Assembly: GCF_000027125.1 (NCBI RefSeq)
Contig: NC_017626.1
Length of the DNA: 64,000 nt
Strand: one strand, 5' to 3'
DNA from: Escherichia coli 042
GTDB lineage: Bacteria > Pseudomonadota > Gammaproteobacteria > Enterobacterales > Enterobacteriaceae
Below are positions 13,601-14,311 of this stretch, in pieces (the stretch's first letter is position 1; each line of letters starts with the position of its first letter). The position numbers are program-made.

Positions 13601-14311
13601 AGCGCGTGCAGGGAGCAACCAAAGCAAAAAAGAGTGAACCGGCAGCCGCTACCCGCGCGCGGCCGGTGAATAACGCTGCGCTGGAAAGACTGGCTTCGGT
13701 CACCGATCGCGTTCAGGCGCGTCCGGTGCCATCGGCGCTGGAAAAAGCGCCAGCCAAAAAAGAAGCGTATCGCTGGAAGGCCACCACTCCAGTGATGCAG
13801 CAAAAAGAAGTGGTCGCCACGCCGAAGGCGCTAAAAAAAGCGCTGGAACATGAAAAAACGCCGGAACTGGCGGCGAAGCTGGCGGCAGAAGCCATTGAGC
13901 GCGACCCGTGGGCGGCACAGGTGAGCCAACTTTCGCTACCAAAACTGGTCGAACAGGTGGCGCTAAATGCCTGGAAAGAGGAGAGCGACAACGCAGTATG
14001 TCTGCATTTGCGCTCCTCTCAGCGGCATTTGAACAACCGCGGTGCACAGCAAAAACTGGCTGAAGCGTTGAGCACGTTAAAAGGTTCAACGGTTGAACTG
14101 ACTATCGTTGAAGATGATAATCCCGCGGTGCGTACGCCGCTGGAATGGCGTCAGGCGATATACGAAGAAAAACTTGCGCAGGCGCGCGAGTCCATTATTG
14201 CGGATAATAATATTCAGACCCTGCGTCGGTTCTTCGATGCGGAGCTGGATGAAGAAAGTATCCGCCCCATTTGATCGTAAGCACAGCTTACGTTCGTCAT
14301 CCTTAACGTGA

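What the first reader, a model, noticed from the sequence alone, without database searches (positions are those of the whole stretch)
13620..13640. dnaX tau/gamma frameshift site intact
A AAA AAG at 13626-13632 lies in the dnaX frame and the -1 frame reads GAG TGA immediately after it. This reproduces the classic gamma-subunit terminus. Together with the copA and IS150 sites, the window holds three independent programmed -1 frameshift signals.
Basis: partly seen in the sequence, partly recalled or inferred. Interest (0 to 1): 0.2.

Follow-up and report, generated by a model that had tools for sequence, protein, structure and literature searches.

The report
Textbook E. coli dnaX frameshift site
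This is the well-known ribosome-slipping signal inside the E. coli dnaX gene, which lets one gene make both the long (tau) and short (gamma) subunits of the DNA replication machinery; it is intact here, identical to the laboratory strain's, and entirely ordinary.

Summary
dnaX is at 12343-14274 (+). A_AAA_AAG at 13626-13632 is in the shift-prone X_XXY_YYZ phase. The -1 frame reads GAG UGA (13632-13637), giving a 431-aa gamma ending in KKE.

Both known stimulators are present. One is a Shine-Dalgarno-like AGGGAG at 13610-13615, 10 nt upstream. The other is an 11-bp stem-loop at 13638-13667, 5 nt downstream.

Rfam's DnaX frameshift model (RF00382) matches 13607-13671 full length at 96.8 bits against a threshold of 35. 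There is no difference from E. coli K-12 anywhere between 13471 and 13781. A 101-nt stretch spanning the cassette (13590-13690) is at least 99% identical in 5401 of 5424 complete E. coli genomes. Across 43 distinct Enterobacterales sequences the stem is kept through compensatory changes.

Two corrections apply:
- The insertion sequence in the window is IS1397, not IS150. It does carry an in-frame A_AAA_AAG. The copA C_CCA_AAG site is also real.

Verdict: already known, correctly identified, low interest.

The parts
12343..14274 (+). dnaX zero-frame ORF encoding tau (643 aa)
   Evidence: ORF listing. NCBIfam NF005942 'DNA polymerase III subunit gamma/tau' scores 982.5 bits against a cut-off of 613. 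100% identical to dnaX as annotated in RefSeq for several E. coli genomes. 21 nt and 1 aa (M578T) differ from K-12.
12343..13637 (+). gamma coding region: zero frame through codon 430 (ends 13632), a -1 slip, then GAG UGA (13632-13637); 431 aa ending in KKE
   Evidence: Translation with the slip. It has the same extent as the two-piece gamma CDS annotated in K-12, 492092..493386.
13610..13615 (+). internal Shine-Dalgarno-like stimulator AGGGAG, 10 nt upstream of the heptamer
   Evidence: Sequence. It lies inside the Rfam match. AGGGAG-N10-AAAAAAG occurs once in the window with 0 expected. The literature uses AGGGAG as the dnaX SD stimulator (PMC5389563).
13626..13632 (+). slippery heptamer A_AAA_AAG in X_XXY_YYZ phase (Lys429-Lys430)
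   Evidence: Phase check; invariant in 43 Enterobacterales sequences, although the heptamer was part of the search pattern.
13632..13637 (+). -1 frame codons GAG UGA that finish gamma
   Evidence: K-12 annotation.
13638..13667 (+). 3' stimulatory stem-loop, 5 nt after the heptamer. It has a 6-bp lower stem (13638-13643 with 13662-13667), an A13644/G13661 apposition, a 5-bp upper stem with C13658 bulged, and the loop UACCC (13650-13654).
   Evidence: MFE of -18.0 to -19.1 kcal/mol, z about -2.1 to -2.3. Same structure as the Rfam consensus. Covariation across Enterobacterales. Pair probability 0.99 in 39-nt and 161-nt contexts.
13607..13671 (+). whole cassette as defined by Rfam RF00382 (DnaX ribosomal frameshifting element)
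   Evidence: 96.8 bits against a gathering score of 35, E = 5.8e-20, model positions 1-65 of 65.

Best explanation
This is the canonical programmed -1 ribosomal frameshift cassette of Escherichia coli dnaX.

Ribosomes translating dnaX reach A_AAA_AAG with the two Lys codons in the P and A sites. At that point the 11-bp hairpin (13638-13667) sits at the mRNA entrance, and the upstream AGGGAG (13610-13615) can pair with the 3' end of 16S rRNA. Translocation is hindered, and both tRNA-Lys molecules can re-pair one base back (AAA AAA). A large fraction of ribosomes (about half in vivo, per the literature) continue in the -1 frame, add one Glu and stop at UGA. This yields the 431-aa gamma subunit, which lacks tau's C-terminal domains. 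The remaining ribosomes read on to make the 643-aa tau.

Shown here: every sequence element is present, in the correct phase and spacing, and identical to K-12; the hairpin is conserved with compensatory changes.

Inferred from published work on the identical K-12 sequence: that frameshifting occurs, how efficient it is, and what each stimulator contributes.
For: - Phase and -1 stop.
- Full-length Rfam RF00382 match at 96.8 bits.
- Hairpin at -18 to -19 kcal/mol with the same pairs as the Rfam consensus.
- No nucleotide difference from K-12 between 13471 and 13781, although the gene differs from K-12 at 21 sites.
- K-12 annotates gamma as a two-piece CDS ending at the equivalent of 13637.
- RefSeq marks a 'DnaX frameshifting element' on 100%-identical genomes.
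- The 101-nt stretch 13590-13690 is at least 99% identical in 5401 of 5424 E. coli genomes, whereas the whole gene reaches 99% in only 395.
- In 43 distinct Enterobacterales sequences, 87.7% of cells are paired against 28-52% when partners are slid by 1-3 columns. Five pairs show double changes, including A-U to G-C at 13638:13667 in 11 sequences and G-C to A-U at 13642:13663 in one.
- The literature describes the three signals, about 50% shifting and termination one codon later (PMC5389563; PMC5009743).
Against: Nothing substantive. Thermodynamic folding depends on context: in 13633-13700 the canonical hairpin is displaced by a longer-range fold, and z-scores are modest (-1.8 to -2.3) because the region is GC-rich.

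The covariation set was selected on the SD element, the heptamer, GAGTGA and the 5' arm [AG]CCG[AG]C. Only the 3' arm and upper stem are therefore free of ascertainment, and the region also encodes tau. No expression data exist for this particular strain.
Confidence: 0.97

Rival explanations
1. The heptamer is a chance run of A's in a Lys-Lys dipeptide with no recoding role.
For: AAAAAAG on its own is common: 14 in the window against 8.5 expected, and 4 of 100 shuffles reach 14. Two further copies lie in dnaX itself.
Against: Only this copy is in the X_XXY_YYZ phase. The composite with AGGGAG-N10 has 0 chance expectation. There is a full-length Rfam match, a -1 stop after one codon, and a conserved, covarying hairpin.
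Confidence: 0.01
2. Gamma is made here by transcriptional slippage on the A-run (as in Thermus thermophilus dnaX) or by proteolysis of tau (as in Caulobacter), not by ribosomal frameshifting.
For: Both alternative routes to gamma exist in other bacteria (PMC5009743). The site contains a run of six A's.
Against: The review cited describes bacterial transcriptional slippage on runs of 9 A or T; this run has 6. The SD-like element and hairpin are ribosome-directed stimulators. The sequence is identical to the K-12 cassette, for which ribosomal frameshifting has been shown in vitro on defined mRNAs.
Confidence: 0.01
3. The cassette is intact, but its efficiency in this strain differs from K-12 because of flanking context. 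One candidate is competition for the hairpin's 5' arm from downstream sequence, for example the near-repeat of the 3' arm at 13717-13728.
For: Folding 13633-13700 or 13633-13760 lowers the probability of the canonical hairpin to 0.00 and 0.33.
Against: The flanks from 13471 to 13781 are identical to K-12, so any such effect would be the same in K-12. The 161-nt context restores probability 0.99. The ribosome meets the hairpin as a local structure.
Confidence: 0.01

Closest known systems
E. coli K-12 dnaX -1 frameshift cassette (Rfam RF00382; gamma CDS YP_009518751.1)
   Same: Everything in the cassette is the same: heptamer, phase, GAG UGA terminus, AGGGAG at -10, the 11-bp hairpin with an A:G apposition and a bulged C, and all spacings. 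The sequence is identical from 13471 to 13781.
   Different: Only the rest of the gene differs: 21 substitutions and one amino-acid change in tau (M578T), all outside the cassette.
dnaX hairpins of other Enterobacterales (Enterobacter, Pantoea, Serratia, Mixta and others)
   Same: SD-like element, 10-nt spacer, heptamer, GAGUGA, and the lower stem plus the first two upper-stem pairs.
   Different: The upper stem uses a different register (GCGC/GCGC, pairs 41-52 and 42-51 in alignment columns) in about half of the sequences, in place of the E. coli-type 41-51/42-50/43-49. Pantoea-type loops are 3 nt shorter. The closing pair is G-C instead of A-U in 11 sequences.
IS3-family orfA-orfB frameshift (here IS1397, window 21656-23087)
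   Same: The same A_AAA_AAG heptamer, in phase (22180-22186), with an upstream SD-like AGGAG 11 nt before it.
   Different: The -1 frame stays open for 289 more codons and gives a 449-aa OrfAB fusion transposase rather than a truncated product. It is a mobile element, not a core gene.
copA / CopA(Z) -1 frameshift (window 32381-32375, minus strand)
   Same: A -1 shift followed by one codon and then a stop, producing a short N-terminal product (70 aa) from a long gene.
   Different: The heptamer is C_CCA_AAG. The literature reports the stimulators as an mRNA pseudoknot and the nascent peptide, not an SD-like element plus a hairpin (PMC7558416). The pseudoknot was not tested here.
Thermus thermophilus dnaX (transcriptional slippage) and Caulobacter dnaX (proteolysis)
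   Same: The same biological outcome: tau plus a shorter gamma from one gene (PMC5009743).
   Different: A different mechanism. Neither depends on an SD-like element or a hairpin acting on the ribosome.

Membership tests
DnaX ribosomal frameshifting element (Rfam RF00382) | The host gene is dnaX (DNA polymerase III gamma/tau) | tested here: met
   NCBIfam NF005942 scores 982.5 bits against a cut-off of 613; RefSeq annotation.
DnaX ribosomal frameshifting element (Rfam RF00382) | A_AAA_AAG heptamer in X_XXY_YYZ phase of the zero frame | tested here: met
   13626-13632; (13626-12343) mod 3 = 2.
DnaX ribosomal frameshifting element (Rfam RF00382) | -1 frame terminates one codon after the shift (GAG UGA), giving gamma ending in KKE | tested here: met
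   13632-13637; 431-aa product; same end as the K-12 gamma CDS.
DnaX ribosomal frameshifting element (Rfam RF00382) | Internal Shine-Dalgarno-like sequence about 10 nt 5' of the heptamer | tested here: met
   AGGGAG at 13610-13615 with a 10-nt spacer.
DnaX ribosomal frameshifting element (Rfam RF00382) | Stable stem-loop 5-6 nt 3' of the heptamer | tested here: met
   13638-13667, -18 to -19 kcal/mol. Consensus structure matched in the covariance-model alignment. Compensatory changes across Enterobacterales. Caveat: the fold of 13633-13700 alone does not show the hairpin.
DnaX ribosomal frameshifting element (Rfam RF00382) | Score at or above the family's gathering threshold over the full model | tested here: met
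   96.8 bits against 35, model positions 1-65 of 65.
DnaX ribosomal frameshifting element (Rfam RF00382) | About 50% of ribosomes actually shift, giving gamma and tau at roughly 1:1 | not testable with these tools
   Established for the identical K-12 sequence (PMC5009743; PMC5389563).
   No significant blastn match to K-12 IS150; OrfA 27% and OrfB 52% identical. RefSeq names the 99.96%-identical locus IS1397.
IS3-family programmed -1 frameshift (IS1397) | In-phase slippery heptamer in orfA with orfB open in the -1 frame | tested here: met
   A_AAA_AAG at 22180-22186 in orfA phase; the -1 frame is open to 23055; 449-aa fusion. NCBIfam transpos_IS3 scores 300 bits on OrfB. RefSeq notes 'programmed frameshift'.
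copA/CopA(Z) programmed -1 frameshift | C_CCA_AAG in phase at codons 67-69 with a -1 stop after one codon | tested here: met
   32381-32375 on the minus strand; -1 frame GGC TAA; 70 aa. K-12 annotates the two-piece 'soluble Cu(+) chaperone' CDS of the same length.
copA/CopA(Z) programmed -1 frameshift | Downstream mRNA pseudoknot stimulator | not tested
   Known from the literature (PMC7558416). The first 330 nt of copA differ from K-12 at only 3 positions, all upstream of the site.

The most novel reading that the evidence does not exclude
Nothing about the window's own cassette is novel. The most novel reading left open comes from the cross-species comparison. The upper half of the dnaX hairpin exists in two mutually exclusive pairing registers across Enterobacterales: the E. 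coli type with a bulged C, and the Enterobacter/Pantoea type with GCGC/GCGC. This could reflect lineage-specific tuning of the gamma:tau ratio. In addition, a near-repeat of the hairpin's 3' arm at 13717-13728 could compete for the 5' arm and modulate efficiency.
Probability: 0.07. Interest if true: 0.25.

Novelty: already known. Interest (0 to 1): 0.04.

Why it matters
It matters only as a correct annotation. The window comes from an E. coli chromosome whose dnaX carries the classic tau/gamma recoding signal, so two proteins should be annotated from this gene. The signal has been a model system for -1 frameshifting since 1990, and nothing here changes that picture. The check has two practical lessons. 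Single-window RNA folding can wrongly "refute" a genuine stimulatory hairpin. And insertion-sequence names should not be guessed from a heptamer.

Tried and rejected
The MFE (-28.7 kcal/mol, z = -1.2) is a competing long-range fold, and the canonical hairpin has probability about 0. I rejected this as a test because the result changes with window length: 0.99 at 39 nt and 161 nt, 0.33 at 128 nt.
- The genome-contig scan with AGGGAG-N(9-11)-AAAAAAGAGTGA returned many Collinsella loci. On reading, these are a true ribosome-binding site followed by a GTG start (GTG CCA AAA AAG AGT GAG...), not a frameshift site. They were discarded, as were scattered single hits in unrelated phyla.
- A single consensus structure for all Enterobacterales hairpins fails in the upper stem: about half of the cells are unpaired in either register. 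Two registers are needed.
- The repeat finder found no inverted repeat for the insertion sequence. The 16-nt terminal repeats contain a mismatch that breaks the 9-nt seed; they were found by eye.
- The original copA frameshift paper (PMC5270581) is not held, so a review was cited instead.
- IS150 identity was tested directly against K-12 IS150 and rejected.

Full report
**1. The observation**

The window carries a 643-codon ORF at 12343-14274 on the + strand. It scores 982.5 bits against the NCBIfam equivalog model for DNA polymerase III gamma/tau, whose cut-off is 613. It is 100% identical to dnaX as annotated in several complete E. coli genomes.

The sequence at 13620-13640 is caaagcAAAAAAGagtgaacc. 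Position 13626 is the third base of codon 428, so the run reads A_AAA_AAG with Lys429 and Lys430 in the zero frame. After a -1 slip the next two codons are GAG (13632-13634) and TGA (13635-13637). The product is 431 aa and ends in KAKKE.

The K-12 record annotates gamma as a two-piece CDS, 492092..493386. That ends at exactly the equivalent of window 13637.

**2. Is it more than chance?**

The heptamer alone is not. AAAAAAG occurs 14 times in the window against 8.5 expected. Two further copies lie inside dnaX, at 13756 and 13834, in the non-shifting phase.

What sets this copy apart is its context:
- AGGGAG sits at 13610-13615, exactly 10 nt upstream. The composite AGGGAG-N10-AAAAAAG occurs once, with zero occurrences in 100 shuffles.
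- A hairpin lies at 13638-13667, 5 nt downstream.
- Rfam's covariance model for the DnaX frameshifting element (RF00382) matches 13607-13671 over its full 65 positions, at 96.8 bits against a gathering score of 35 (E = 5.8e-20).

**3. The hairpin**

Folded as 30, 39 or 65 nt, the region gives the same structure as the Rfam consensus. It has a 6-bp lower stem (13638-13643 with 13662-13667), an A13644/G13661 apposition, and a 5-bp upper stem with C13658 bulged. The loop is UACCC. The energy is -18.0 to -23.0 kcal/mol, with z between -1.8 and -2.3.

The review PMC5009743 describes the natural dnaX stem as 11 bp with a bulged C and an A:G apposition. This is exactly what is seen here.

Folding 13633-13700 yields a different, longer-range MFE structure (-28.7 kcal/mol, z = -1.2). 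In that context the canonical pairs have a probability of about 0. In a 128-nt context it is 0.33, and in the 39-nt and 161-nt contexts 0.99. Folding alone is therefore equivocal, and taken at face value it would have "refuted" a real element.

**4. Comparative evidence**

Within E. coli, the gene differs from K-12 at 21 positions (98.9% identity, one amino-acid change, M578T). None of these lies between 13471 and 13781. The whole gene is at least 99% identical in only 395 of 5424 genomes. The 101 nt spanning the cassette (13590-13690) are at least 99% identical in 5401 of 5424.

Across species, one scan of species-representative genomes with AGGGAG-N(9-11)-AAAAAAGAGTGA gave 120 loci. About half are dnaX of Enterobacterales, and they collapse to 43 distinct 65-nt sequences.

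With the Rfam structure laid over their alignment:
- 87.7% of cells are standard pairs, against 28-52% when the 3' partners are slid by 1-3 columns.
- Five pairs carry double changes.
- The closing pair 13638:13667 is A-U in 29 sequences and G-C in 11.
- Pair 13642:13663 is A-U in Mixta.
- Pair 13648:13656 is A-U in one Enterobacter.

The upper stem uses two registers. The E. coli type uses alignment columns 41-51, 42-50 and 43-49. About half of the sequences (Enterobacter, Pantoea, Serratia and others) use a GCGC/GCGC type, columns 41-52 and 42-51.

Caveats apply. The set was selected on the SD element, the heptamer, GAGTGA and the 5' arm motif. The region also encodes tau. Some compensatory changes are non-synonymous in tau, for example Val to Ala at the 3' side of the closing pair.

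**5. Mechanism**

The sequence is identical to the K-12 cassette, so the published mechanism applies by inference. The slippery A_AAA_AAG is essential, and the hairpin and the SD-like element stimulate. In one in vitro system efficiency was 84%. It fell to 2% with G_AAG_AAG, to 20% without the hairpin and to 50% with the SD mutated (PMC5389563). In vivo, about half of the ribosomes shift and terminate one codon later (PMC5009743).

Gamma lacks the C-terminal third of tau. From general knowledge of the Pol III holoenzyme, that third contains the DnaB- and alpha-binding domains.

Alternative routes to gamma are known elsewhere: transcriptional slippage in Thermus and proteolysis in Caulobacter. 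They are unlikely here. The A-run is only six long, and the stimulators present act on the ribosome.

**6. The side claim of three -1 frameshift signals**

copA is real. Its ATG is at 32581 on the minus strand. C_CCA_AAG occupies gene nt 201-207 (window 32381-32375) in the correct phase. The -1 frame reads GGC TAA and gives a 70-aa product. This matches the two-piece 'soluble Cu(+) chaperone' CDS that K-12 annotates. The downstream pseudoknot was not tested.

The insertion sequence is not IS150.
- It is a 1432-bp insertion relative to K-12, at 21656-23087.
- It shows no nucleotide similarity to K-12 IS150; OrfA is 27% and OrfB 52% identical.
- RefSeq names the 99.96%-identical locus IS1397, with a programmed frameshift.
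- It does carry an in-phase A_AAA_AAG at 22180-22186, with AGGAG 11 nt upstream. The -1 frame gives a 449-aa OrfAB fusion.

The count of three is right; one name is wrong.

**7. Verdict**

This is a correct identification of a textbook element. It is already known and of low interest.

Noticed in passing
window 21656-23087: A 1432-bp IS1397 (IS3 family) is inserted in the gsk-ybaL spacer and is absent from K-12. Its terminal repeats are TGAACTGCACCCCAAA and TGAACTGAACCCCAAA, with a 3-bp TGG duplication. It sits inside a REP/palindromic unit (gcctgatgcgacgcTGG | IS | TGGcgcgtcttatcaggcc), which matches the published REP-specific targeting of IS1397 (PMC1525189).
   Followed up: yes
window 28783-28866 (+): The small RNA sroB (annotated as ChiX in K-12) matches Rfam RF00368 at 81.1 bits. 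It lies between ybaK and ybaP, as in K-12.
   Followed up: partly
window 29732-30080: The 727-bp K-12 segment between ybaP and copA, which holds ybaQ, is replaced here by an unrelated 349 bp. No ybaQ is annotated in the matching strain.
   Followed up: partly
window 35100-60889: A 25.8-kb island lies between ybaT and cueR and is absent from K-12. It holds a TolC-family gene, a roughly 20.8-kb giant repetitive adhesin gene (siiEA, BapA-related), and a type I secretion ABC transporter plus HlyD adaptor. The stretch of the window that includes it (25443-63879) is 98.7% identical to strain Ecol_316, and the adhesin has internal repeats of 73-75% identity.
   Followed up: partly
window 61393-64000: Downstream of cueR the window no longer matches K-12 (ybbJ/qmcA). 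In the matching strain this region holds two hypothetical genes and a YadA-like adhesin gene, with tandem repeats of roughly 369 nt.
   Followed up: no
L126 (E. coli O157:H7 Z1833), equivalent to window 13663-13722: One complete genome has a 60-nt in-frame deletion in dnaX just after the frameshift site. It lies between the near-repeats GCGCGGCCGGTG (13657-13668) and GCGCGTCCGGTG (13717-13728). The junction rebuilds the hairpin's 3' arm, so the cassette stays intact while tau loses 20 residues.
   Followed up: partly
L017 (Candidatus Pantoea persica), dnaX site: The SD-like element, heptamer and GAGTGA are kept, but the downstream sequence no longer forms the conserved stem (GAGCCGGCAGCGTCGGCTAACTCC...). 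This may be a decayed stimulator in a symbiont-like genome.
   Followed up: no
L005, L006 and about 45 other Collinsella loci: AGGGAG-N10-AAAAAAGAGTGA is highly conserved in Collinsella. There it is a ribosome-binding site plus the GTG start of a gene (M P K K S E S T G...), not a recoding site.
   Followed up: partly
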